Source of the DNA: Gaiellales bacterium
GTDB taxonomy: Bacteria; Actinomycetota; Thermoleophilia; Gaiellales; JAICJC01
NCBI GenBank assembly: GCA_035473255.1
Contig: DATIOK010000055.1
Span: forward strand, 1,924-65,923
Direction of reading: 5' to 3'
DNA length: 64,000 nt
Shown: positions 22,042 to 55,185 of the stretch, one piece after another
Numbering within the stretch: position 1 is the first letter of the stretch
How the letters are laid out: each line of letters starts with the position of its first letter
Translations under genes and position numbers: made by a program
The notes under the pieces: generated by a model
Told to the model about the DNA's origin: nothing
What the model saw: only the letters and a program-made list of their open reading frames with translations
Database searches by the model: none

Positions 22042-22076
22042 CGGGTGATAGAGAGGTGCCGGGCACCGTCGTAACA
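22042..22076 (+). repeat. Left 35-bp REP-like repeat
   Basis: CGGGTGATAGAGAGGTGCCGGGCACCGTCGTAACA, with internal palindrome GGTGCC-G-GGCACC. Confidence 0.92.
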
Positions 22077-22140
22077 GCCGACACCGATCCGCGACGGATC
22101 CGTGACAGACGCGAGCAGCAATCGCCGGTAGCGTCGAACC

Positions 22141-22863
22141 ATGCCTCGACGATCTCGACCGCTGGTGGCCGGTGGCCGCTACCACGTCACCATGCGCGGC
22201 AACAATCGTGGCGAGATCTTCGCCTCGGATGAGGACCGCGTGATGCTCCTCAACACAATCGGACGGGCCAAGCGGCGCCACGGCTGGAAGGTGCACGCGT
22301 ACTGTCTGATGTCGAACCACTATCACTTGTTGATCGAGACCCCCGAACCGAACATCGCGATCGGCATGCAATGGCTCAACAGCACCTATGCCCACCGTTT
22401 CAACGAGAAGTACGAGCGGATCGGACATCTGTTCCAGCGGCGGTACTCCGACGGCATCATCCTCACAGACGAGCACCTGCACGAGGTGATCCGCTACATC
22501 CCGCTCAACCCGGTGAGAGCGGGGTTGTGTAGGCGCCCAGAAGACTGGCCCTGGTCGAGCTGCCGCGCAACTCTCGGCTACGGCCCTCGAGAGCCATTTC
22601 TAAGTGTGCGGCCAACGCTTGACCGATTCTCACCAGATCCGGACGAGGCCCGAGTCTTGCTCCGAGAATGGGTCGAGGCCGGGAGGCACGAAATTCGATC
22701 GTCGCATCCGAAGCCGTTGATCGGGATCATGCGGCCAGGGAAGCCGGTCGAGCCGGCGGCACTGCGAGCGGCCAGACTCAACGGCTACACCTATGCACAG
22801 ATCGCAACGCACCTAGGCGTGAGCGAAATGACAGCGTGGCGGAAAGTCGTCGCGGCCATGTGA
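22141..22863 (+). CDS. IS200/IS605-superfamily Y1 transposase (RAYT type) with C-terminal HTH
   Basis: YHVTMRGNNR, YCLMSNHYH (HUH), GHLFQRRY, YIPLNPVRAG, WPWSS; HTH GYTYAQIATHLGVS. Confidence 0.92.
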   Translation: MPRRSRPLVAGGRYHVTMRGNNRGEIFASDEDRVMLLNTIGRAKRRHGWKVHAYCLMSNHYHLLIETPEPNIAIGMQWLNSTYAHRFNEKYERIGHLFQRRYSDGIILTDEHLHEVIRYIPLNPVRAGLCRRPEDWPWSSCRATLGYGPREPFLSVRPTLDRFSPDPDEARVLLREWVEAGRHEIRSSHPKPLIGIMRPGKPVEPAALRAARLNGYTYAQIATHLGVSEMTAWRKVVAAM

Positions 22864-22878
22864 CGGCTGTGCAACGGG

Positions 22879-22913
22879 TGTTACGACGGTGCCCGGCACC
22901 TCTCTATCACCCG
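22879..22913 (-). repeat. Right 35-bp REP-like repeat
   Basis: Exact reverse complement of 22042-22076. Confidence 0.92.
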
Positions 22914-26953: not shown

Positions 26954-27817
26954 ATGAGCATCCGCACCTTCGGCGCCCAGAGCATGACCGCGCAGCTGCG
27001 CGACGTGCTGGTAAAGCGCCCCGCTGCGGCCTTCGGCGCCGCCTTCGACGATCCCGCCCACGGCTACCTGCACCCCGTCGACCTGGACGCCGCCCAGCGC
27101 GAGCACGACGCGCTGACGGCGATCCTGGCCGACCTGGGCGCGACCGTCCACGAGCTGGACTCCGACTACGACCCCGACCTCACCTACACGTTCGACCCGG
27201 CGCTGGTCACCGACCGCGGCGTGCTGCCGCTGCTGGCCGGCAAGCGCAACCGGGTCGGCGAGGAGTTGGTGATCGAGCGCTGGTGCAACGAGCACGGCAT
27301 CCCCACGCTGGGGCGGATCGAGTCACCCGGCACGGCGGAGGGTGGCGACACGTTCTGGCTGGACGAGCGCACCCTGTGCGTGGGCCGGACGCTTCGCACC
27401 AACCGCGCCGGCGTCGCGCAGCTCCGCTCCATCATTGAACCTGAGGTAGAGGTTGAGATATTCGACGTCCCCTACTGGAAAGGCGCCGGGGAGCTGGTGC
27501 ACCTGATGAGCGTGATCTCGCCGATCGCAGACGACCTGGCGGTGGTGTTCCTGCCGCTCTTCCCGTGCGGCCTGCTGGAGTTGCTGCAGGAGCGGAGCGT
27601 GCGGCTGGTGGAGGTGCCCGAGGAGGAGTACCTCTCGCTCGGCTGCAACGTGCTGGCCGTCAGCCCCGGCGTGGCCGTTGTCGCGGACGGTAACCCGGTC
27701 ACGCGCGCGCGGCTGGAGGCCGCCGGCGCCGAGGTGCATGCCTTTCCCGCCGGCCAGGTGGGCGTGAACGGCAGCGGCGGGCCGACCTGCCTGACCCGTC
27801 CCATCCTGCGCGGATGA
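26954..27817 (+). CDS. Amidinotransferase/pentein family hydrolase (DDAH/arginine deiminase-like)
   Basis: YTFDP, EGGD, RTNRAG, HLMS, C-terminal GGPTCLTRP. Confidence 0.88.
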   Translation: MSIRTFGAQSMTAQLRDVLVKRPAAAFGAAFDDPAHGYLHPVDLDAAQREHDALTAILADLGATVHELDSDYDPDLTYTFDPALVTDRGVLPLLAGKRNRVGEELVIERWCNEHGIPTLGRIESPGTAEGGDTFWLDERTLCVGRTLRTNRAGVAQLRSIIEPEVEVEIFDVPYWKGAGELVHLMSVISPIADDLAVVFLPLFPCGLLELLQERSVRLVEVPEEEYLSLGCNVLAVSPGVAVVADGNPVTRARLEAAGAEVHAFPAGQVGVNGSGGPTCLTRPILRG

Positions 27818-29082
27818 AGAACCTGACGCCCGCGGAGCTGGCCGCCGTCGCGGCCGTCGACCGCGACCGCATCGGCGACGACCTGGCGGCGCTGGTGCGG
27901 ATTCCCAGCGTCACCGGCGAGGAGGGCGCCGTGCAAACCGAGGCGGCCCTGCGGATGGCGCACGCCGGGCTGGAGGTGACCCGCGTCGACGCCGACCCGT
28001 CACAGCTGGCCGGCGACCCCGACTTCCCGGGCATGGAGGCGCCGCGCACGACGTTGCCGGTGGTGGCGGGCGCCGTCGGCCTGGTCGGCGCGCCGCGCCG
28101 GGTGATCATCGCCGGCCACATCGACACGGTGTCACCGGGCCAGCGCGAGGACTGGAGCACCGACCCGTTCGGCGCGGAGCTGCGCGACAGCCGCCTGTAC
28201 GGGCGCGGCTCCCTGGACATGAAGGGCGGCGTGGTGGCCGGACTGGCCGCGCTGCGGGCGCTGGTCGACACCGAGACCGAACTGCAGGGCGAGGCGGTGC
28301 TGGTGACCGTGCCCAGCGAGGAGGACGGCGGCGCCGGCATGCTGGCCGCGATCCGGGCCGGCTACGTGGCCGAGATGGCCGTCATCACCGAGCCCACCAG
28401 GCTCGAGATCGTGACCGCGCAGGCCGGGGCGATCACGTTCCTGCTGACGGTCAGCGGCCGCTCCGCCCACGCCGCCTACCGCCTCGAGGGCATCTCCGCC
28501 ATCGAGAAGCTGCGCGTCATCCACGACGGGCTGCTGGCCGACGAGCGCGAACGCAACGAGAGCGAGCAGAACCCGGCAATGCGCGATCTCGGCCTCCCCT
28601 ACCCCACCAACCTGGGGCGCATATCCGGCGGCGACTGGTCGTCGACCGTTCCCGACCGGGTCACCGTCGAGGGCCGCTACGGCGTGCGCGTCGGCGAGAC
28701 GCCGGAGCAGGCCGAACAGGCCCTGCGAGACGCCGTGGCGGCTGCCTGCGCCGGCGACGAGTGGCTGCGCGACCACCCCGCCTCGATAGAGATCACCGGC
28801 GGGCGCTTCGCCTCGGCGGTCGTGCCCCACACCCACCCGCTGCCCTGGGGCCTGGGCGAGGCCGCCCGCGACGTGCTGGGCAAGCTGCCCGCCTTCGTGG
28901 GCGTCCCCTACGGCGCCGACATGCGGCTGCTGATCCACGAGGGCGCCACGCCGACTGTCCTCTACGGCCCCGGCGATCCGTTCCTGGCCCACGCCCCGGA
29001 CGAGCACGTCGAGCTCGAGGACGTCGCGCGGTGCGCGCGGGTGCTGGCGGTGTGGGTGATGCGGGCGCTCGCGTGGGGCTAG
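27814..29082 (+). CDS. ArgE/DapE family M20 metallo-deacylase
   Basis: GHIDTV, YGRGSLDMKGG, SEEDGG, TEPT, GRSAH, HAPDEHV. Confidence 0.9.
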   Translation: MKNLTPAELAAVAAVDRDRIGDDLAALVRIPSVTGEEGAVQTEAALRMAHAGLEVTRVDADPSQLAGDPDFPGMEAPRTTLPVVAGAVGLVGAPRRVIIAGHIDTVSPGQREDWSTDPFGAELRDSRLYGRGSLDMKGGVVAGLAALRALVDTETELQGEAVLVTVPSEEDGGAGMLAAIRAGYVAEMAVITEPTRLEIVTAQAGAITFLLTVSGRSAHAAYRLEGISAIEKLRVIHDGLLADERERNESEQNPAMRDLGLPYPTNLGRISGGDWSSTVPDRVTVEGRYGVRVGETPEQAEQALRDAVAAACAGDEWLRDHPASIEITGGRFASAVVPHTHPLPWGLGEAARDVLGKLPAFVGVPYGADMRLLIHEGATPTVLYGPGDPFLAHAPDEHVELEDVARCARVLAVWVMRALAWG

Positions 29083-30200
29083 GGCACGCGCAGCGACCAC
29101 GGCGCCAGCGGCACGATCGCCAGCAGCACGATCCCGGCGGCAAGGAAGGCGGTCCCCGGCGAAGCGTCGTAGACCGGCAGCCACGCCAGCGGCGCCACCG
29201 CCGTACCGGAGAACTTGAAGGCGGCAAACAGCGACACGGCGCCGCCGCGGTTGGCGGGCACGGCCTCCACGGCGATGGTGTTCAGGGCCGCCCACAGCAG
29301 CGCCGACACCGCGCCCGCCGCGAACCACAGCAGCGCCATCGCCCCGACCGACGGAGCGATGCCGAGCGGCGCGATCATGGCGGCGCAGCCGATCGCCGCC
29401 AGCACCGCCGCCCGGGCCGGGCCCAGCCGCTCCGAGCCGAGCCCGCCCAGCCGCCCGAACAGGAGACCGGCGGCTCCGTAGACGGCCAGCACCGCGCCGC
29501 GGCCGGTGGCGCCCAGCGCGAACGCGTCGTCCGCGCGCAGCGAGATCAGGAAGGCGAGGCCGGCCATGCCCAGGTAGCCCGCGAACCCGGCGGCGCACAG
29601 CAGCCCCATCCGCGGCGTCGCCACCGAGCGCAGCGTCGGCAGCTGCTCACCCACGGCCCGGATCGGGTCGGGCGGCGGCATCAGCATCAGACCCAGGGAA
29701 ACCAGCGCCGGCAGGATGAACGCCAGCCGCCAGCTGCCCTCGGCGGCCAGACCGCCCAGCAGCGGCGCCAGCGACAGCCCGCCTGCCTGCACGCCCGCGA
29801 ACATGCCCACCGCGCGGCCGCGCTCGCCGGCCGGTACCGCGTCGGCCAGCCCCGCCAGGAGCAGCGGCGTCGTGAACGCGTTGGCCGTTCCCTGCAGCGC
29901 GCGCGACACCAGGAAGATGCCGATCGTAGGCGCCACCGCGGCCAGTAGCAGCGCCACCGCGTACACGAGGTAGGCGGCGCGCACGGCGCGGCGGCGGCCG
30001 ATCCGCTCGCCGATCGTGCCCGACACGACCTGCAGCAGCGCGAACGGCACCAGGTAGGCCGGCACCGCCAGCGCCACCTGATCGGTGGTCGCGTGGAAGG
30101 CGTCGCGCAGCTCCGGGATCAGCACAGCCAGCACGGCGCCGCCGAACGGCCCCAGGAAGCCGCCCAGATACAGCGGCAGCGTGGCGCGCCGGCCCGTCAC
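29079..30200 (-). CDS. MFS transporter
   Basis: About 12 TM segments; SGTIGERIGRRR motif-A-like loop; start GTG 30200. Confidence 0.85.
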   Translation of the reverse strand: MTGRRATLPLYLGGFLGPFGGAVLAVLIPELRDAFHATTDQVALAVPAYLVPFALLQVVSGTIGERIGRRRAVRAAYLVYAVALLLAAVAPTIGIFLVSRALQGTANAFTTPLLLAGLADAVPAGERGRAVGMFAGVQAGGLSLAPLLGGLAAEGSWRLAFILPALVSLGLMLMPPPDPIRAVGEQLPTLRSVATPRMGLLCAAGFAGYLGMAGLAFLISLRADDAFALGATGRGAVLAVYGAAGLLFGRLGGLGSERLGPARAAVLAAIGCAAMIAPLGIAPSVGAMALLWFAAGAVSALLWAALNTIAVEAVPANRGGAVSLFAAFKFSGTAVAPLAWLPVYDASPGTAFLAAGIVLLAIVPLAPWSLRVP

Positions 30201-31090
30201 TCGCGCACCGTCGCACCCGGCATCAGCCGGCCCATCGAAACCCCGCCCACGATCACGGCGCCGCCCAGGATCTGCAGGCCGGTGACCTGCTCGCCCAGCA
30301 GCCAGGCCGCGAACAGCGCGCCTAGGAATGGCTGCAGGTACATGTAGAGCGTGGCTCGCGAGGCGCCGATCGTGCGCAGCGCGCGGAAGTAGAGCAGGTT
30401 GGTGACCAGCACCGGGAAGATCGTCGAGTATCCCCAGGCGGCCCAGTGCAGGCCGCTGAGGCCGCCCCAGTCCTGCTCGTGCATCTGGGGCAGGCCGAAG
30501 GGCAGGATCATGACGCCGCCGATCGACACCATCAGCGCGCTGATGCGAGCGGCCGAGTAGCGGCCGAACAGCGGCCGCAGCATCACGGAGTAGGCGGCCC
30601 AGGTGATGGCGGCACCCACGGCCAGCAGGTCGCCGACCAGGCTCACACCGGCCACGCCGGAGCCGCCCTGGATCACCAGCACCACGCCGGCCACCGACAC
30701 GGCCAGCGCCAGCCAGTGCTTGGGCTGCACGTGCTCGTGCCCGGCGAGCGACGCGAACAGCGCCGCGAACGCGGGGGCGGAGGCCAGGATCAGGGCGGTG
30801 TTGCCGGCGGTGGTCTTGTCGACCGCGTAGTTGAACGTGAGCTGGTTGAGCAGGATGCCCACGGCCGCGGTGGCCACCACCAGCTTCACGTCCGAGCGCC
30901 GGATGCGCAGGCTGCCCTCGCGCCACAGCACGAACAGGGCGAAGATGATGCCCGCGCAGAGAAAGCGCGTGGCCGAGAATGCCAGCGGCAGCCACTCGCC
31001 GAAGGCGTACTTTGTGGTCGCGTAGTTCAACGACCAGAGGACGTTCGCGAGCACCAGCATGGCATCCGCGGAGTCCGGTGTTCGGCGCAC
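30197..31090 (-). CDS. EamA/DMT family transporter
   Basis: 10 TM segments, LWSLNY, GDLLAVGAAITWAAY, YLQP, LLGE; start 31090 or 31060. Confidence 0.88.
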   Translation of the reverse strand: MRRTPDSADAMLVLANVLWSLNYATTKYAFGEWLPLAFSATRFLCAGIIFALFVLWREGSLRIRRSDVKLVVATAAVGILLNQLTFNYAVDKTTAGNTALILASAPAFAALFASLAGHEHVQPKHWLALAVSVAGVVLVIQGGSGVAGVSLVGDLLAVGAAITWAAYSVMLRPLFGRYSAARISALMVSIGGVMILPFGLPQMHEQDWGGLSGLHWAAWGYSTIFPVLVTNLLYFRALRTIGASRATLYMYLQPFLGALFAAWLLGEQVTGLQILGGAVIVGGVSMGRLMPGATVRE

Positions 31091-31144
31091 GCGCAGAGGG
31101 TAGCCGGGCGGTCAGAGCGCCCGCCGCAGGTGTACCCTGGCGGC

Positions 31145-31905
31145 ATGTCCTCCGAGCAACTGACCGCCGACGACCTGCTTTCGCTGTGCGCCCGCGCGCA
31201 TGGGGCGACCGGGCGGCTGACCGCATCGCCGGCGTCGCCTCGGCAGCAAACGCTGCGGAAGCTGGCCGGATACGTCAACGACCGCATGACCGCCGCCGCG
31301 CTTGCGCACGAGCGCGACGCGGTCTCGATCGAGGTCGTTCACGGGCTGCAGGACGCCGTGCAGGCGCTGGTGTTTGCCGATCTGCTCTCGCAGATCGGGG
31401 TTGACGCCGACGGCTACATCAGGCTCGACCGCGACGGGGTTCGTCCTGCGATCGCACCAACCCCGCCGAACGCGGTCTGCATGCCGGCTTCCTGGAGCAG
31501 GTGGACGGCATCTCGGCCGCGCTGTTCGTCGTTGCGGATGAGCTGCTGGAAGTCGCGTACGCCTCCCGGACAACGCCCGATCTGGAGGTGGCGGACGCCG
31601 ACCAGGCCGTGCAGATGCTCGCCGATTCGTGCACCGCACACCTGCGCCAGGCGGACGGCGGCGAGGTGCCCGCCGAGCCGGAGCAGCGCGAGCGCGGCAT
31701 GGTCTGGCTGACGTTCTGCCGGCGCACGTTGGAGCGCTCGCTCGCCGTGCTCGAGACGCTGCGCGACGAACGGGACGAAGACCTGGCCTGGGCCGGGCTG
31801 GTCGAGCTGTCGCGTGCCCCCGGCCTCTACCGCGAGCTGGGGCCGGCGATGCCGGGGTCGCAGCACCTGCTGGAGCTGGCGGCGACTGTCGCCGAGTCTC
31901 CCTAG
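31145..31905 (+). pseudogene. Hypothetical gene apparently frameshifted near 31435-31460
   Basis: Coding-like MSSEQLT...IRLDRDG in one frame continues as ...ERGLHAGFLEQVDGISAAL...AESP* in another. Confidence 0.5.
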
Positions 31906-31922
31906 ATACCCCTTGGGGGTAT
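31906..31922. promoter_or_regulatory. CsoR operator
   Basis: ATACCCC-TTG-GGGGTAT palindrome immediately upstream of the copA -10 (TAGGCT, 31925). Confidence 0.85.
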
Positions 31923-31936
31923 GCTAGGCTGGGTGC

Positions 31937-34126
31937 ATGGCACAGACGCGCGAGCACCTCGAGCTGCCTGTCGAGGGCATGAGCTGCGCGTCCTGCGCCG
32001 GCCGCATCGAGCGGCGGCTGAACGGCCTCGACGGCGTCCACGCCACCGTCAACTTCGCCACGGAGCGTGCCGCAGTCGATTTCGACCCCGGCCGTGCCGA
32101 ACCGCGCCTGATCCTGCGCACCATTGAGGAGACCGGGTACCGGGCACGGCTGCCCGGGGCCGACACCGTGCCTCCGCCACCCGCGGCCGGCAGGAGCGTC
32201 GACGTCCGGCTGGCGGCGTCGGCGTCGCTGTCCCTGCCGGTGCTGCTGCTGGCGATGGTGCCGTCGCTGCAGTTCGACGGCTGGCAGTGGATCTCGTTCG
32301 CGCTGGCCACCGTGGTCGTGTTCTGGGGAGGCGCCGAGTTCCACCGCGCGGCGCTGAGCTCCCTGCGCCACGGCGCCGCCACGATGGACACGCTGATCTC
32401 GATCGGCACCCTGGCCGCATGGGCGTGGTCGGCGGTCGCGATCCTGTTCCTGGACGCGGGCGGGCTGCACTACCGCATGTCGATCGACTGGTCGCTGCAG
32501 ACGGGCGGCTCTCCGGGAGAGGGCCTGTACCTGGAGGTGGCCGCGGTGGTCACGACCCTGGTGCTGGCCGGCCGGTTCTTCGAGGCACGCGCAAAGCGTC
32601 AAGCCGGGGCCGCGCTGCGCGCGCTGCTGGAGCTGGGCGCGCCGGAGGCGACACTGCTCGCGGATGGCCTCGAACGGCGCGTGCCCACCGCACAGCTGGT
32701 CGTGGGCGACAGCCTCGTGGTGCGGCCGGGTGAGCGCATCGCCACCGACGGGCTGGTGCTGGAGGGCCGGTCAGCGGTCGACCGCTCGCTTCTGACCGGT
32801 GAAAGCGTACCCGTCGACGTGGGCCCCGGCGACACCGTGACCGGCTCCACGGTGAACGGTGAAGGGCGGCTGGTCGTCCGGGCAACCGCGGTCGGCGCGG
32901 GCACGGCCGTCGCCCGCATCGGCCGCATGGTCACCGCAGCCCAGAGCGGCAAGGCTGACGCCCAGCGGCTGGCCGATCGCGTCTCGGCCGTGTTCGTCCC
33001 GATCGTGATCGCGCTGTCCGCGGCCGCGCTGGCGTTCTGGCTGCTGGACGGCGCCGGAACCGCCGAGGCGTTCGGCGCCGCGGTGGCCGTGCTGGTGGTG
33101 GCCTGCCCGTGCGCGCTGGGCCTGGCCACGCCCACCGCGCTGCTGGTCGGCACAGGGCGCGGCGCCCAGCTGGGCGTGCTGATCAAAGGCCCCGAGGTGC
33201 TGGAGCAGACGCGGCGCGTGACCATGATCGTGCTCGACAAGACCGGCACCGTCACCACAGGCCGCATGCGCGTCGCCGAGGTGATCGCAACCGGTGACGT
33301 CCCCGCCGCGCGGCTGCTGCAGCTGGCCGGTGCAGCCGCCGCCGCGAGCGACCACCCGGTGTCGCGCGCCATCGCCGATCATGCCCGGGCCGCAGGCCCG
33401 CTGCCGGCTGCGGTCGAGGCGCGCACGCTGCCCGGGCGCGGCGCCCAGGCGAAGGTGGACGGCCACACCATTGTGGTCGGACGCGGCAGCGACCACCGGG
33501 ATTCCACGGACGAGGACGGCACCGTGGCCGGCGTGACATGCGACGGCAGCGCGATCGGCCAGATCCGGCTGACCGACGCGGTCAAGCCCGAGGCAGCCGA
33601 GGCGATCATCGAGCTGCGCCGGCTGGGGCTGGAGCCGTTCCTGCTCAGCGGTGACAACGACCAGGCGGTGGCGGCGGTCGCGCGCAGCGTCGGCATCGAC
33701 CGCTACCGGGCCGGTGTGCTGCCCGAGGACAAGGCCAGGGAGGTGCGGCACCTGCAGGATGCCGGGGCGGTTGTCGCCATGGTCGGAGACGGCGTCAACG
33801 ACGCTCCCGCGCTCGCCCAGGCCGACCTGGGCCTGGCCATGGGCACCGGCACCGACGTGGCCGTCGAGGCCGGCGACCTGACGCTGGTGTCTGGCGACCT
33901 GCGTGCGGCCGGCGACGCCATCCGGCTGGCGCGGCGCACCCTGGCCGTGATCAAGGGCAACCTGTTCTGGGCGTTCGCCTACAACGTGGTTCTGATTCCG
34001 CTGGCCTTCGCCGGCCTGCTGAACCCGATGCTCGCCGCGGCCGCCATGGCCTGCTCGAGCCTGTTCGTCGTGACCAACAGCCTGCGGCTGCGGAGCTTCC
34101 GGAGCCGCCGAGAGGAGCCGGTCTGA
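31937..34126 (+). CDS. copA: Cu(I)-translocating P1B-type ATPase
   Basis: GMSCASC metal-binding domain, LTGES, CPCALGLATP, DKTGT, HP, GDGVND, YN and MACSS. Confidence 0.95.
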   Translation: MAQTREHLELPVEGMSCASCAGRIERRLNGLDGVHATVNFATERAAVDFDPGRAEPRLILRTIEETGYRARLPGADTVPPPPAAGRSVDVRLAASASLSLPVLLLAMVPSLQFDGWQWISFALATVVVFWGGAEFHRAALSSLRHGAATMDTLISIGTLAAWAWSAVAILFLDAGGLHYRMSIDWSLQTGGSPGEGLYLEVAAVVTTLVLAGRFFEARAKRQAGAALRALLELGAPEATLLADGLERRVPTAQLVVGDSLVVRPGERIATDGLVLEGRSAVDRSLLTGESVPVDVGPGDTVTGSTVNGEGRLVVRATAVGAGTAVARIGRMVTAAQSGKADAQRLADRVSAVFVPIVIALSAAALAFWLLDGAGTAEAFGAAVAVLVVACPCALGLATPTALLVGTGRGAQLGVLIKGPEVLEQTRRVTMIVLDKTGTVTTGRMRVAEVIATGDVPAARLLQLAGAAAAASDHPVSRAIADHARAAGPLPAAVEARTLPGRGAQAKVDGHTIVVGRGSDHRDSTDEDGTVAGVTCDGSAIGQIRLTDAVKPEAAEAIIELRRLGLEPFLLSGDNDQAVAAVARSVGIDRYRAGVLPEDKAREVRHLQDAGAVVAMVGDGVNDAPALAQADLGLAMGTGTDVAVEAGDLTLVSGDLRAAGDAIRLARRTLAVIKGNLFWAFAYNVVLIPLAFAGLLNPMLAAAAMACSSLFVVTNSLRLRSFRSRREEPV

Positions 34127-52638: not shown

Positions 52639-53837
52639 TGGCGCGGATCCTGCTGGATGAGGTGACCAAGGTGTTCGGCTCCGAGGTGGTCGCGGTCGAC
52701 CACGTCAGCCTGGAGGTCGCGGACGGCGAGTTCATGGTGCTCGTAGGCCCATCCGGCTGCGGCAAGTCGACGCTGCTGCGGATCATCGCGGGCCTCGAGG
52801 AGCTATCTACCGGCGAGGTCGTGATCGGCGACAGCATCGTCACCGACATGTCCCCGCGCGACCGTGACATCGCCATGGTGTTCCAGAACTACGCGCTCTA
52901 CCCGCACATGACGGTCGAGCAGAACCTGGGTCTGGGCTTGAAGCTGCGCGGCGCGCCCAAGGCCGAGCGCAAGGCGAAGGTGGGCGAGGTGGCGCAGGTG
53001 CTGGGTCTGGACACGCTGCTCAGCCGCAAGCCGGCCCAGCTCTCGGGCGGCCAGCGGCAGCGCGTCGCGATGGGCCGCGCCATGGTGCGCGAGCCGCGGG
53101 CGTTCCTGATGGACGAGCCGCTGTCGAACCTCGACGCCAAGCTGCGCGTGCAGATGCGGGCGGAGCTGGCACGTCTCCGTGACACCCTGCACACCACCAC
53201 CATCTATGTCACCCATGACCAGGTCGAGGCGATGACGCTGGGCGACCGCGTGGCGGTGATGAAGGACGGCGTCGTCCAGCAACTCGACACGCCCCAGGCG
53301 CTCTACCGCGCGCCCGCCAACCTGTTCGTGGCAGCGTTCATCGGATCGCCGTCCATGAACCTGATCGAGGCCACCGTGCACGGCGGCGAGCTGGCCTTTG
53401 CCGAGCACCGCCTGCCGGTGCCGGACGGCGTCGACCTGCGCGCTTACGAGGGCCGCTCGCTGGTGCTGGGCCTGCGTCCGGCCGACTTCGAGGACGCCGC
53501 ACTGGGGCGCGACGAAGGCTCCCCCACCCTGCACGTGCGGGCCGACGTGGTCGAGGAGCTGGGCTCGGAGATCAACGTCATCTTCCGCATCAACATCCCT
53601 CCTGTGGCGACCGAGGCGGTGCGCGCAGCGGCGGAGCCGGACGCGGCCGACAGCACCGTGGTGCCGCTGGTGGCCGACGCCGACGAGACGATCTGCACGG
53701 CCCGCGTCAACGCCCGCTGCCCGGCGCGGGCCGGCGACGACGTGGAGCTGGCGATCGCGACCGATCGCTTCCACTTCTTCGACCTCGAGTCCGGAGAGGT
53801 GATCACCAACCGGGCGCAGCAGGCCGCAGCCGGCTAG
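52638..53837 (+). CDS. Sugar ABC ATPase (MsiK/MalK-like)
   Basis: GPSGCGKST, VFQNYALYPH, LSGGQRQR, DEPLSNLD, YVTHDQ. Confidence 0.95.
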   Translation: MARILLDEVTKVFGSEVVAVDHVSLEVADGEFMVLVGPSGCGKSTLLRIIAGLEELSTGEVVIGDSIVTDMSPRDRDIAMVFQNYALYPHMTVEQNLGLGLKLRGAPKAERKAKVGEVAQVLGLDTLLSRKPAQLSGGQRQRVAMGRAMVREPRAFLMDEPLSNLDAKLRVQMRAELARLRDTLHTTTIYVTHDQVEAMTLGDRVAVMKDGVVQQLDTPQALYRAPANLFVAAFIGSPSMNLIEATVHGGELAFAEHRLPVPDGVDLRAYEGRSLVLGLRPADFEDAALGRDEGSPTLHVRADVVEELGSEINVIFRINIPPVATEAVRAAAEPDAADSTVVPLVADADETICTARVNARCPARAGDDVELAIATDRFHFFDLESGEVITNRAQQAAAG

Positions 53838-54553
53838 GCGCTGCTGGGCTGGGCGGCCGTGAGCGGCTCGGCGTCGAAGCGGTAGCCGACGCCGTAGTGG
53901 GTGTGGATGTAGCTGTACGTGCCCGAGCGCTGGTCGAGCTTCTCGCGCAGCTTGCGCACGCACACGTCGACGGAGCGGTCGCGCGGCCGGTAGGGCGTGC
54001 CCCAGACCCGCTGCTGAAGCTGGTCTCGCGTCATCACGCGGCCCTGCCCGGATGCCAGCACCGACAGCAGCCGGAACTCGGTACGGGTCAGCTCGGCATC
54101 GCGGCCGTCGATGAGGGCGCGGTGGAGGTCCGGGTCGACGATCAGCCCCGGTACCTCCACCCGCGAGCGTCCCCCGTCGCCCGCGAACACGCCCGCCCGT
54201 CTGACCGCGGCCCTGACGCGTGCGACCAGCTCACCCATGCCGAACGGCTTGGCCAGGTAGTCATCGCCGCCGATGCCGAGCGCGTGCACCTTGTCCTGTT
54301 CGGTGCCCCGCGCGCTGACGACGATTAGCGGTATCCCGATGCCATCCGCCCGCAGCGCCTCGATCATACGCCAGCCATCCATCCCCGGCAGCATCAGATC
54401 GATGATGGCCACATCAGGCCGTTCGAACCGAAGCTTCTTCATGGCGCGGTCGCCGCGGTCCGACCACTCGACGTCCATCCCCGCGTGACGGAGATGGGTT
54501 GCCATCGCGTTCGCGATCAGCGAGTCGTCCTCGACGATCAGAACGCGGGGCAC
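53834..54553 (-). CDS. OmpR-family response regulator (no kinase adjacent)
   Basis: VEDD, IDLMLP, DDYLAKPF, LTRTEF, RSVDVCVRKLREK, GVGY. Confidence 0.93.
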   Translation of the reverse strand: MPRVLIVEDDSLIANAMATHLRHAGMDVEWSDRGDRAMKKLRFERPDVAIIDLMLPGMDGWRMIEALRADGIGIPLIVVSARGTEQDKVHALGIGGDDYLAKPFGMGELVARVRAAVRRAGVFAGDGGRSRVEVPGLIVDPDLHRALIDGRDAELTRTEFRLLSVLASGQGRVMTRDQLQQRVWGTPYRPRDRSVDVCVRKLREKLDQRSGTYSYIHTHYGVGYRFDAEPLTAAQPSSA

Positions 54554-54693
54554 GGCCTCTCCGCCTCAAACCCAGAACTGGCACGCTTCCCGATCATCGA
54601 AGACAGGATGCCCCGGCTCGGCGGGTGCATGGGTCGCGCCGCGGTGTCGATCGGGTGAAGGTTCGGTGAAGACGCATTCCACGTGAGGGGTCA

Positions 54694-54970
54694 TCTAGAT
54701 GATCGATCGATATCTCCGTGATGTCCAAGGCGCAAGGCATCGCCTTGCGCCGGTCGGGAGTGATCTGCGATCACGCAGATCACGACCGGGCGAGAACCGA
54801 GTCTCGCGCAGGTGCAAGTCTCATGCGACTTGCACCGATCATGAGCGATCTGCGATCACGCAGATCGCGGACGGAGACGACGGTTCGCAGCCGTAGCCAC
54901 CCCGGCCGCCGCTCACCTCAAACCGAACGCAGCGGCCAGGCTCGCGAGAGATATCGATCGATCATCTAGA
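54694..54970. other. 277-bp multi-hairpin element with 23-bp terminal inverted repeats (MITE, REP cluster or structured ncRNA)
   Basis: TCTAGATGATCGATCGATATCTC (54694-54716) / exact reverse complement (54948-54970), enclosing four 10-bp-stem hairpins. Confidence 0.8.
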
Positions 54971-54981
54971 CTCCGCCGGCC

Positions 54982-55185
54982 ATGAGCGCACCCACCAAAC
55001 GCGACATCGACGCCCTCTGGGGCCCGGCCACACCGCAGTTCGCCTACCAGCTGGCGGAGCGCGTGGCGGCGCTGATCAGCGACCTGCAGGCCGGCGATCC
55101 TGTACGCGAGTACGGCATGCAGCGCCTGGCTGACCTCGACCGGCTGGGTCAGGGCACCGGCAAGGGGCCCGAGCCGGCGCACTGA
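54982..55185 (+). CDS. Small hypothetical protein
   Basis: 67 aa, GC3-rich; -10 TAGACT upstream. Confidence 0.65.
   Translation: MSAPTKRDIDALWGPATPQFAYQLAERVAALISDLQAGDPVREYGMQRLADLDRLGQGTGKGPEPAH

What the first reader, a model, noticed from the sequence alone, without database searches (positions are those of the whole stretch)
54694..54970. 277-bp multi-hairpin element with A-B-A'-B' stems showing compensatory base changes
A perfect 23-bp terminal inverted repeat closes four hairpins. A: GGCGCAAGGC-atc-GCCTTGCGCC (54729-54751). B: GTGATCTGCG-atca-CGCAGATCAC (54760-54783). A': GGTGCAAGTC-tcatgc-GACTTGCACC (54811-54836). B': GCGATCTGCG-atca-CGCAGATCGC (54845-54868). A/A' differ by two substitutions per arm and B/B' by one, and every change keeps pairing, which indicates selection on structure. 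Both ends contain CTAG (a possible target duplication, as for some IS5-type elements) and the element is GATC-rich. It lies between the promoters of the orphan response regulator and a small gene. Candidates are a MITE, a BIME-like REP array for an HUH enzyme, or an undescribed structured RNA. It does not resemble the RAYT repeats at 22 kb.
Basis: partly seen in the sequence, partly recalled or inferred. Interest (0 to 1): 0.72.

Follow-up and report, generated by a model that had tools for sequence, protein, structure and literature searches.

The report
Modular hairpin-carrying MITE in soil Actinobacteria
The multi-hairpin element is a small non-coding "jumping gene" (a MITE) that recently inserted at a TA in a CTAG site between two genes, and it belongs to a previously undescribed multi-copy family in uncultured soil Gaiellales.

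Summary
The inverted repeat, four hairpins and compensatory differences are all present.

**What it is.** A 269-bp MITE (54698-54966) flanked by a duplicated TA. The outer 4 bp of the reported "23-bp TIR" belong to the palindromic target TCTAGA.

**Evidence:**
- Two assemblies of near-identical strains carry the same locus without the element, with a single TA.
- About 40 further copies (117-315 bp) occur in Gaiellales MAGs and soil contigs.
- Inferred target is CTAG in 16 of 23 insertions. Flank 4-mers rule out a 4-bp CTAG duplication.
- The window itself holds the empty allele (31902-31905) of another copy.

**Architecture.** The family is modular. Conserved ends enclose optional cassettes: the A-B hairpin pair (0, 1 or 2 copies) and the C and D hairpins. 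A roughly 25-nt segment is hypervariable. The window's A-B/A'-B' are two cassette copies. Stem covariation is significant across copies.

**Insertion pattern.** About half the loci abut a gene's TAG stop codon.

**Negative results.** No Rfam family matches. The element is unrelated to the window's RAYT gene.

**Open point.** The mobilising transposase was not found. An IS630/Tc1-mariner type or an IS5-family IS427-group type is inferred.

**Verdict.** A new family of a known kind; moderate interest.

The parts
54696..54697 (.). Left copy of the duplicated target TA (inside the left CTAG)
   Evidence: The empty allele L001 reads ...GGGGTCATC-TA-GACTCC with a single TA. A contig in run X2 skips 272 nt at this point.
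54698..54716 (+). Left terminal inverted repeat GATGATCGATCGATATCTC (19 bp)
   Evidence: The same end is found in 36 paired copies. Mean pairwise identity of TIR columns is 97% among nine non-orthologous 199-bp copies.
54717..54727 (+). Left subterminal segment (CGTGATGTCCA), which extends the terminal stem. With the TIR it contains an outward promoter-like site on the minus strand (TGGACA-17-GATCAT, 54727->54699).
   Evidence: Folds. Promoter scan (a consensus match only).
54728..54788 (+). First A-B cassette: hairpin A (54729-54751) and hairpin B (54760-54783). It is optional in the family and replaces TGGAC of the shorter forms.
   Evidence: Joints that skip 64 nt (54724->54789) in soil metagenomes.
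54789..54807 (+). C segment GGCGAGAACCGAGTCTCGC. It can form a local hairpin. In the 199-bp form it pairs with the right half of the element.
54810..54868 (+). Second cassette A'-B': hairpin A' (54811-54836) and hairpin B' (54845-54868). The A' type (GGTGCAAG...CTTGCACC) recurs as the second cassette in six other elements (L019, L026, L033, L014, L003, L047).
54869..54947 (+). Right internal part, conserved in all forms. It includes the hypervariable segment 54903-54927.
   Evidence: nhmmer profile of this part found no further copy in the window. Variant letters pile up at 54905-54927. Identity is 52% in the variable columns against 93-97% elsewhere.
54948..54966 (-). Right terminal inverted repeat (GAGATATCGATCGATCATC on the + strand)
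54967..54968 (.). Right copy of the duplicated TA
31902..31905 (+). Unoccupied CTAG target. TAG at 31903-31905 is the stop codon of ORF 31501-31905. Orthologous soil contigs (L012, L018, L031, L050, L051) carry a 199-bp family member at this site.
   Evidence: L012 flanks align to window 33956-31902 and 31895-27459 at 92.6-94.7% identity. Sequences read. ORF coordinates.
53834..54553 (-). Neighbouring OmpR-type response-regulator gene. Its start lies 144 bp from the element's left end.
   Evidence: Pfam Response_reg and Trans_reg_C. Distances.
54982..55185 (+). Neighbouring 67-aa ORF with no Pfam family. Its ATG lies 13 nt after the right TA.
   Evidence: It is also present next to the empty site in L001.

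Best explanation
The element is a non-autonomous DNA transposon (MITE) with no coding capacity.

**Mechanism.**
- A DDE transposase encoded elsewhere is inferred to bind the 19-bp terminal inverted repeats GATGATYGATCGATATCTC.
- It cuts the element out and pastes it into a TA dinucleotide, preferably within CTAG, and duplicates the TA.
- The transposase was not found. Its type is inferred to be IS630/Tc1-mariner, or alternatively the IS427 group of the IS5 family.

**This insertion.** The window copy landed in the TCTAGA between the response-regulator gene and a 67-aa ORF. The insertion is recent, because near-identical strains still carry the empty site.

**Family architecture.**
- A minimal form of about 117 bp is an imperfect long palindrome.
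- The commonest form, 199 bp, adds the C and D segments.
- Larger forms carry one or two copies of a roughly 60-nt cassette made of hairpins A and B.
- The window's 'A-B-A'-B'' pattern is therefore two cassette copies of two old types, not an RNA gene of its own.

**Stem pairing.** Pairing in the stems is kept by compensatory changes. This suggests the hairpins matter for the element's spread, or act as single-stranded DNA or RNA structures. That step is inferred.

**Insertion sites.** TA and CTAG are rare in these roughly 70% G+C genomes. Insertions therefore concentrate at TAG stop codons and in intergenic DNA, and the same sites are hit repeatedly.
For: **Shown**
- *Empty/filled pair 1.* L001 has 99.6% (left) and 94.9% (right) flank identity and lacks the element, with one TA. 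An X2 metagenome contig also skips it.
- *Empty/filled pair 2.* The window is empty at 31902-31905, where L012 and four other contigs carry a 199-bp copy between TA and TA.
- *Multi-copy.*
  - Depth is 100-860 over the element against 18.8 in the flanks in run X1.
  - Exact TIR-core matches occur in 5 Gaiellales or Actinomycetes MAG contigs and 46 soil contigs.
  - These gave 36 paired copies of 117-315 bp.
- *Target.*
  - TA is on both sides in 14 of 23 distinct insertions.
  - The rest differ by one base.
  - The inferred target is CTAG in 16 of 23.
  - Flank 4-mers differ between sides, which excludes a 4-bp duplication.
- *Modularity.*
  - Searches show the cassette combinations.
  - Joints skip 64 and 149-152 nt.
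  - Modules occur only inside copies within the 323 kb held.
- *Recurrent hits.* L009 and L030 share orthologous flanks at 92-93% identity but carry the element in opposite orientation at 123 vs 199 bp.
- *Covariation in A/B stems.*
  - 99% of cells are paired.
  - 5 pairs changed on both sides.
  - 0-1 of 500 shuffles reach these values, and slid controls give 25-44% pairing.
- *Stop-codon abutment.* About 11 of 21 loci (hand count; distances).

**From the literature**
- IS630/Tc1-mariner elements insert at TA and duplicate it. IS630 prefers TA in CTAG (PMC2170065 and its reference to Tenzen & Ohtsubo 1991).
- IS427-group IS5 elements make 2-bp duplications (PMC3281130, Table 2).
Against: - No transposase-bearing copy with these ends was found. 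I looked in the 323 kb held, among exact-TIR hits in genome, metagenome and viral collections, and among sequences continuing from the left end in four soil metagenomes.
- One end of each metagenome hit was forced to carry TA by the search pattern. Only the other end is an unbiased test.
- Short-read assemblies break at repeats, so copy numbers per genome are unknown.
- Purely selfish DNA would not obviously need covarying internal hairpins. A cut-and-paste TA transposase is not known to need them.
Confidence: 0.9

Rival explanations
1. It is primarily a structured non-coding RNA, either a small-RNA gene or a cis-regulatory 5'/3' UTR element. Its four hairpins are kept by selection on RNA folding, and the repeat-like spread is secondary.
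For: The folding z-scores are very strong. Stems covary. One-sided changes in the terminal stem are G.T on the L->R strand in 20 cells against 2 A.C. A conserved T.G pair sits in hairpin D. Metatranscriptome assemblies contain the sequence.
Against: No Rfam family reaches significance. Copies lie in both orientations relative to the abutting gene, roughly 7:7 by hand count. Folding energy shows no strand preference (16 vs 10 copies, p = 0.29). Presence/absence polymorphism with a TA duplication and TIRs is a transposon signature. In the RNA runs the element-to-flank depth ratio (about 57) is like that in DNA runs (46-62), so nothing shows specific expression, and DNA carry-over cannot be excluded.
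Confidence: 0.08
2. It is a BIME-like array of REP hairpins made and moved by the HUH (RAYT) tyrosine transposase encoded at 22.1 kb in the same window.
For: A Y1_Tnp/RAYT-like gene is present at 22141-22863, bracketed by 39-nt inverted repeats. The element does consist of several short G+C-rich hairpins.
Against: The hairpins share no sequence with the repeats bracketing the RAYT gene. Hairpins A-D never occur on their own outside TIR-bounded copies in 323 kb. The element has 19-bp TIRs and a TA duplication, which REPs lack. The element inserts as a single TIR-bounded unit at a defined target.
Confidence: 0.02
3. The element is a MITE, but the apparent compensatory changes come from mutation, not selection. 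Template switching between the arms of quasi-palindromes, and gap repair or gene conversion between copies, would copy a change from one arm to the other and shuffle cassettes.
For: Cassettes are clearly shuffled between copies, even at the same locus (L012 vs L017). Deletion derivatives exist (L029/L039 at 110 bp, L036/L040 at 33 bp). Among close copies, unpaired internal columns are nearly as conserved as paired ones (93% vs 94%).
Against: With the divergent L005 copies included, paired columns stay at 91% while unpaired ones fall to 77% and the variable segment to 43%. This looks like constraint on pairing. Wobble intermediates (G.T) persist in several copies. That would not be expected if correction were fast.
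Confidence: 0.3

Closest known systems
IS630/Tc1-mariner-mobilised bacterial MITEs (RUP of Streptococcus pneumoniae, Nezha of cyanobacteria; plant Stowaway) - named from my own knowledge
   Same: Small size, no ORF, TIRs, and insertion at TA with TA duplication. The CTAG preference matches that reported for IS630 (PMC2170065 and its reference list). Multi-copy with insertion polymorphism.
   Different: No cognate IS630-family element with matching ends was found. The host is an uncultured Gaiellales lineage. The interior carries optional covarying hairpin cassettes and a hypervariable segment. No sequence similarity to any annotated plasmid record.
IS427 group of the IS5 family (2-bp duplications; IS1301 of Neisseria with AYTAG/TA and Streptomyces IS112 recalled from memory)
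   Same: 2-bp direct repeats are typical of this group (PMC3281130, Table 2). The ends begin with GA, and the target contains YTAG.
   Different: This is a possible source of the transposase, not a match to the element itself. No IS427-type element with these TIRs was seen. The IS5-group signature proper, a 4-bp YTAR duplication, was tested and not met.
Correia elements of Neisseria and BOX elements of pneumococcus (from my own knowledge)
   Same: These are non-coding repeats with TIR-like ends and size variants produced by optional internal modules (BOX: boxA-boxB(n)-boxC; Correia: long and short forms, TA duplication). They have strong predicted hairpins, lie next to genes, and are reported to affect transcription and mRNA processing.
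   Different: No sequence relation. Regulatory effects are untested here. The cassettes here are pairs of 10-bp-stem hairpins with demonstrated covariation.
REP/BIME elements with RAYT transposases
   Same: Short G+C-rich extragenic palindromes, often just after stop codons. A RAYT-like gene is present in the same window.
   Different: REPs have no TIRs or TSD and occur singly or in alternating arrays. Here the hairpins exist only inside a TIR-bounded, TA-flanked unit.

Membership tests
MITE (non-autonomous class II transposon) | Terminal inverted repeats | tested here: met
   The TIRs are 19 bp and perfect in the window. They are conserved at 97% among non-orthologous copies.
MITE (non-autonomous class II transposon) | Target-site duplication shown by filled versus empty sites | tested here: met
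   Two independent pairs: window vs L001 (and an X2 contig), and L012 group vs window 31902-31905. In both the empty site has one TA and the filled site has TA on each side.
MITE (non-autonomous class II transposon) | Small size without coding capacity | tested here: met
   Copies are 117-315 bp. Lengths and the variable segment are not multiples of three, and no ORF is conserved.
MITE (non-autonomous class II transposon) | Many copies at different loci | tested here: met
   About 21 distinct loci among 36 paired copies. Metagenome depth is 20-45 times that of the flanks.
MITE (non-autonomous class II transposon) | A related autonomous element that supplies the transposase | tested here: inconclusive
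   None was found in the held sequence or among exact-TIR hits. These searches cannot see diverged TIRs, and short-read MAGs rarely assemble IS copies.
IS630/Tc1-mariner-type element | Insertion at TA with 2-bp TA duplication | tested here: met
   The family property is taken from PMC2170065.
IS630/Tc1-mariner-type element | Preference for TA within CTAG (IS630 itself) | tested here: met
   The inferred target is CTAG in 16 of 23 insertions. The others are GTAG, CTAA, ATAG and CTAC.
IS630/Tc1-mariner-type element | TIRs matching an IS630-family transposase-bearing IS | not testable with these tools
   No IS database was on hand and no autonomous copy was recovered.
   The left xTAG and right CTAy 4-mers differ in L008, L009, L012, L017, L043 and L050 (four distinct loci). 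The inner G...C stays constant and so belongs to the element.
IS5 family, IS427 group | 2-bp duplication | tested here: met
   The TA duplication fits. The group property is taken from PMC3281130, Table 2. This feature alone does not separate the group from IS630.
REP/BIME with RAYT | Solitary or arrayed palindromic units without TIR or TSD, related to the repeats flanking a RAYT gene | tested here: not met
   Modules occur only inside TIR-bounded copies. There is no similarity to the 39-nt repeats at 22042-22080/22875-22913.
Any Rfam RNA family | Covariance-model score at or above the gathering threshold | tested here: not met
   The best hit is Ms_IGR-2 at 16.2 bits (threshold 45, E 1.1). 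Nothing was found on six other copies.

The most novel reading that the evidence does not exclude
The internal hairpin cassettes (A-B, C, D) may be functional structured modules rather than filler. They could act as RNA or single-stranded-DNA elements, for example terminators or insulators, mRNA 3'-end protectors, or protein-binding sites. The MITE would then spread and recombine them, placing them precisely behind TAG stop codons across Gaiellales genomes. The argument rests on three observations. Stems covary. Paired columns stay conserved where the adjacent 25-nt segment has diverged to about 45-50% identity. Terminal-stem mismatches are strongly biased to G.T on one strand.
Probability: 0.2. 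Interest if true: 0.6.

Novelty: new member of a known kind. Interest (0 to 1): 0.35.

Why it matters
- It gives a clean, recently active transposon family for Gaiellales. This is an abundant but almost uncultured order of soil Actinobacteria for which mobile DNA has hardly been described.
- Insertion polymorphisms of this element can serve as strain markers in soil metagenomes. The element also explains contig breaks in short-read MAGs.
- TA and CTAG are very rare in 70% G+C genomes. The family shows how such a target preference funnels insertions onto TAG stop codons and a few intergenic sites, with repeated independent hits.
- If the covarying cassettes prove to act on transcription or RNA stability, the family would be an actinobacterial counterpart of the Correia, BOX and REP elements.
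- For the scan itself, the finding is explained and is not a new class of RNA or system.

Tried and rejected
- **Rfam.** I scanned the region, the whole window and six other copies. Nothing was significant.
- **Other copies in the window.** Pattern search and an nhmmer profile found none.
- **Autonomous parent.** All of the following gave no transposase-bearing copy:
  - TIR pairs 600-2500 bp apart in held loci;
  - exact-TIR scans of genomes, metagenomes and viral contigs;
  - loose ends continuing from the left end in four metagenomes;
  - blastn against plasmids;
  - repeated-protein clustering of the loci.
- **Literature.** Full-text searches for the TIR strings and for MITE/IS630/Gaiellales found nothing relevant.
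- **4-bp CTAG duplication.** Rejected from flank 4-mers.
- **Variable segment as a guide complementary to flanks.** Rejected: own-flank matches average 7.0 nt against 7.1 for other copies' flanks.
- **Coding potential.** An ORF spans the 199-bp form, but lengths are out of frame among forms. Rejected.
- **Strand-specific RNA structure.** The MFE comparison was not significant, and there is no orientation bias relative to genes.
- **Intrinsic terminator.** None was found.
- **L006.** This Nomurabacteria hit is a lone 20-mer without a partner and is treated as chance.

Full report
**1. The observation**

- The sequence at 54694-54970 is as described.
- The repeat finder reports the 23-nt perfect inverted repeat and the four short hairpins. 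It also reports a direct repeat that puts A-B and A'-B' 85 nt apart at 82% identity.
- The 23-mer occurs only at these two places in the window. None of 100 shuffles gave a match.
- Both strands fold far better than shuffled sequence, with z-scores of -13.6 and -12.2.
- A and A' differ at two positions per arm and B and B' at one. Each change is matched in the other arm.

**2. It is an insertion**

- I looked up the contigs that encode the identical response-regulator protein.
- One hit is L001, a 2.9-kb ENA contig. It reads ...CACGTGAGGGGTCATC-TA-GACTCCGG...ATGAGC.
- This is the same two genes with no element and a single TA.
- Its flanks are 99.6% (left) and 94.9% (right) identical to the window.
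- A contig in soil metagenome run X2 shows the same 272-nt skip.
- In the window, TCATC-TA is followed by GATGATCG...CGATCATC and then TA-GACTCC.
- The inserted unit is therefore 54698-54966 (269 bp) plus one extra TA.
- The target TCTAGA is itself a palindrome. This made the TIR look 4 bp longer than it is.

**3. It is a family**

*Read depth.*
- Depth over the element is 100-860 against 18.8 for the flanks in run X1. Ratios are similar in three other runs.
- Loose ends are diverse at both boundaries.
- Some joints skip 64 nt (54724->54789) or 149-152 nt (54726->54876).

*Scans for the TIR core.*
- An exact scan of one genome per species found five contigs from Gaiellales or 'uncultured Actinomycetes' MAGs. 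It also found one lone 20-mer in a Nomurabacteria MAG, which I treat as chance.
- A scan of JGI metagenomes found 46 soil contigs.
- Pairing the ends gave 36 copies of 117-315 bp at about 21 distinct loci.

*A second filled/empty pair.*
- L012 and four sister contigs are orthologous to window 27459-33956 at 92.6-94.7% identity.
- They carry a 199-bp copy between TA and TA.
- At that position the window has a bare CTAG (31902-31905). Its TAG is the stop codon of ORF 31501-31905.

**4. Target and duplication**

- TA lies on both sides in 14 of 23 distinct insertions. The others differ from TA by one base at one end.
- The base outside the left TA and the base outside the right TA give CTAG in 16 of 23.
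- One end of each metagenome hit was forced to carry TA by my search pattern. Only the other end is an unbiased test.
- A 4-bp CTAG duplication is excluded. Where the target was not CTAG, the two flanking 4-mers differ (ATAG/CTAG, GTAG/CTAG, CTAG/CTAC, CTAG/CTAT). The inner G...C stays constant.
- Insertion at TA with TA duplication defines IS630/Tc1-mariner transposition. IS630 prefers TA in CTAG (PMC2170065 and its citation of Tenzen & Ohtsubo 1991).
- The IS427 group of the IS5 family also makes 2-bp duplications (PMC3281130, Table 2).
- From memory, IS1301 duplicates TA in AYTAG.
- I could not decide between these two sources because no transposase-bearing copy was recovered.

**5. Anatomy**

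The copies share conserved ends and differ by whole modules.

| Form | Composition |
|---|---|
| Minimal (117-130 bp) | Left end (TIR + CGTGATGTCC) + TGGACGG + right part |
| Commonest (199 bp) | Adds C (GGCGAGAACCGAGTCTCGC) and D (GCGTCAATAY-loop-RTATTGGCGC) |
| Larger forms | Carry the roughly 60-nt A-B cassette once or twice; the first copy replaces TGGAC |
| Window | L-A-B-C-A'-B'-R, without D |
| L003 (orthologous site, related MAG) | L-C-D-A'-B'-R |

- The first cassette is the A type (GGCGCAAGG...) in all 10 elements where it follows the left end.
- The other is always the A' type (GGTGCAAGG...). It follows C or D in 7 elements, and in L003 it is the only cassette.
- These are therefore two old cassette types, not a local duplication unique to the window.
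- The 199-bp form folds as one long rod. Its left half pairs with its right half, and D sits at the tip.
- A 45-nt asymmetric bulge in that rod holds a roughly 25-nt hypervariable C/A-rich segment (window 54903-54927).
- Modules A-D occur only inside copies in the 323 kb held.
- Deletion remnants exist: 110 bp in L029/L039, 33 bp in L036/L040, and a solo end in L037.

**6. Constraint**

*Covariation in the A-B cassettes* (15 distinct cassettes).
- 99% of stem cells are standard pairs.
- Five pairs changed on both sides. One example is GATCTGCG/CGCAGATC against GATGTGCG/CGCACATC.
- 0-1 of 500 shuffles reach these values.
- Slid controls fall to 25-44% pairing.

*Column conservation among non-orthologous 199-bp copies*.

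| Column class | Nine copies | With the two divergent L005 copies |
|---|---|---|
| TIRs | 97% | 93% |
| Paired internal | 94% | 91% |
| Unpaired internal | 93% | 77% |
| Variable segment | 52% | 43% |

*The variable segment.*
- It is stable in place: identical in L024/L053 and one difference between L012 and L017.
- It is not complementary to the flanks.
- It reads best as a neutral clock showing that the rest is constrained.
- An origin at or between transpositions, through gap repair or recombination among copies, is not excluded.
- Quasi-palindrome template switching is a non-selective rival for the compensatory changes.

**7. RNA or DNA?**

- No Rfam family matches.
- Terminal-stem mismatches are G.T on the L->R strand in 20 cells against 2 A.C, or 11 against 2 distinct events.
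- Hairpin D keeps a T.G pair.
- Both observations hint at a single-stranded form of one strand.
- Against this, folding energies of the two strands do not differ (p = 0.29).
- Copies also abut genes in both orientations, about 7:7 by hand count.
- Metatranscriptome assemblies hold the element at the same element-to-flank ratio as DNA runs. They are unstranded contigs and prove nothing.
- No intrinsic terminator was detected.
- One outward promoter-like site (TGGACA-17-GATCAT) lies in the left end and faces the response-regulator gene. It is a consensus match only.

**8. Where copies land**

- In about 11 of 21 loci a gene's stop codon is TAG built from the duplicated TA plus the element's terminal G (hand count; checked by eye in L043 and at window 31903-31905).
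- This follows from the CTAG preference in a genome with about 90% G+C at third codon positions.
- Orthologous sites are hit repeatedly.
  - L009 and L030 have 92-93% identical flanks. The element is in opposite orientations, at 123 vs 199 bp.
  - The window and L003 share the site but differ in modules and in the variable segment.

**9. Comparison and verdict**

- The element meets every testable defining feature of a MITE and of a TA-duplicating (IS630-like) element.
- It fails the tests for a 4-bp IS5-type duplication, for REP/BIME, and for any Rfam family.
- The closest analogues by behaviour are RUP, Nezha and Stowaway. The closest by modular, hairpin-rich build are Correia and BOX. These are named from my own knowledge.
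- I found no description of this family in the open literature.
- It is a new family of a known kind in uncultured soil Gaiellales.
- The covarying cassettes, the hypervariable segment and the strand-biased mismatches remain open questions.

Noticed in passing
window 22042-22913: A RAYT-like tyrosine transposase gene lies at 22141-22863 on the + strand (Pfam Y1_Tnp E 3.4e-14, plus a C-terminal HTH). It is bracketed by 39-nt inverted repeats at 22042-22080 and 22875-22913 (97% complementary). Its sequence is unrelated to the MITE.
   Followed up: partly
window 54903-54927 (alignment A2 columns 144-172): A hypervariable segment of about 25 nt, rich in C and A, sits inside an otherwise 93-97% conserved element and shows 52% mean pairwise identity. 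L026 and L033 differ at 6 of about 30 positions here against 2 of about 285 elsewhere. The segment is stable at orthologous loci and is not complementary to the flanks.
   Followed up: partly
terminal stems of 26 unique copies (window 54698-54716 / 54948-54966 and homologues): Mismatches between the two TIRs are strongly strand-biased: 20 G.T against 2 A.C on the L->R strand. Left TIRs carry A>G changes, and right TIRs (read in their own orientation) carry T>C changes. Overall folding energy shows no matching strand difference.
   Followed up: partly
element ends, e.g. L043 937-1135; window 31903-31905: The end sequence TA|GATGATTGA has stop codons in all three inward reading frames (TAG, TGA, TGA). 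In about half of the loci a flanking gene ends with TAG made of the duplicated TA plus the element's first G. In L043 both convergent genes end this way.
   Followed up: partly
window 53800-54699 vs 54962-55138 compared with L001: Identity to the empty-site allele drops from 99.6% left of the insertion point to 94.9% right of it. This may be a recombination boundary at the insertion site.
   Followed up: no
window 54699-54727, minus strand: A promoter-like match (TGGACA, 17-nt spacer, GATCAT) lies in the element's left end and points out toward the response-regulator gene. To the right, TAGACT (the duplicated TA plus flank) sits 9 nt before the ATG of the 67-aa ORF and is kept by the insertion.
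   Followed up: no
L017 1-1098 vs L012 and window 31902-32048: L017 shares only about 146 nt of one flank, plus the element and its variable segment, with the L012 locus. Its other flank is unrelated, and it carries an extra A-B cassette. This could be a rearrangement, a chimeric assembly, or a cassette gain in place.
   Followed up: partly
L007 2516-2787: One copy (177 bp) lies 20 nt upstream of a tRNA-Arg(CCT) gene at 2713-2787.
   Followed up: yes
runs X1-X4 over window 54694-54970: Depth over the right end (about 860 in X1) is roughly twice that over the left end (about 380-420). This suggests solo right ends or relatives that share only the right part.
   Followed up: no
L033 746-816: A hairpin just outside a MITE copy gives a weak Rfam hit to mir-2064 (31.9 bits, gathering score 100). 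I treat it as chance.
   Followed up: no
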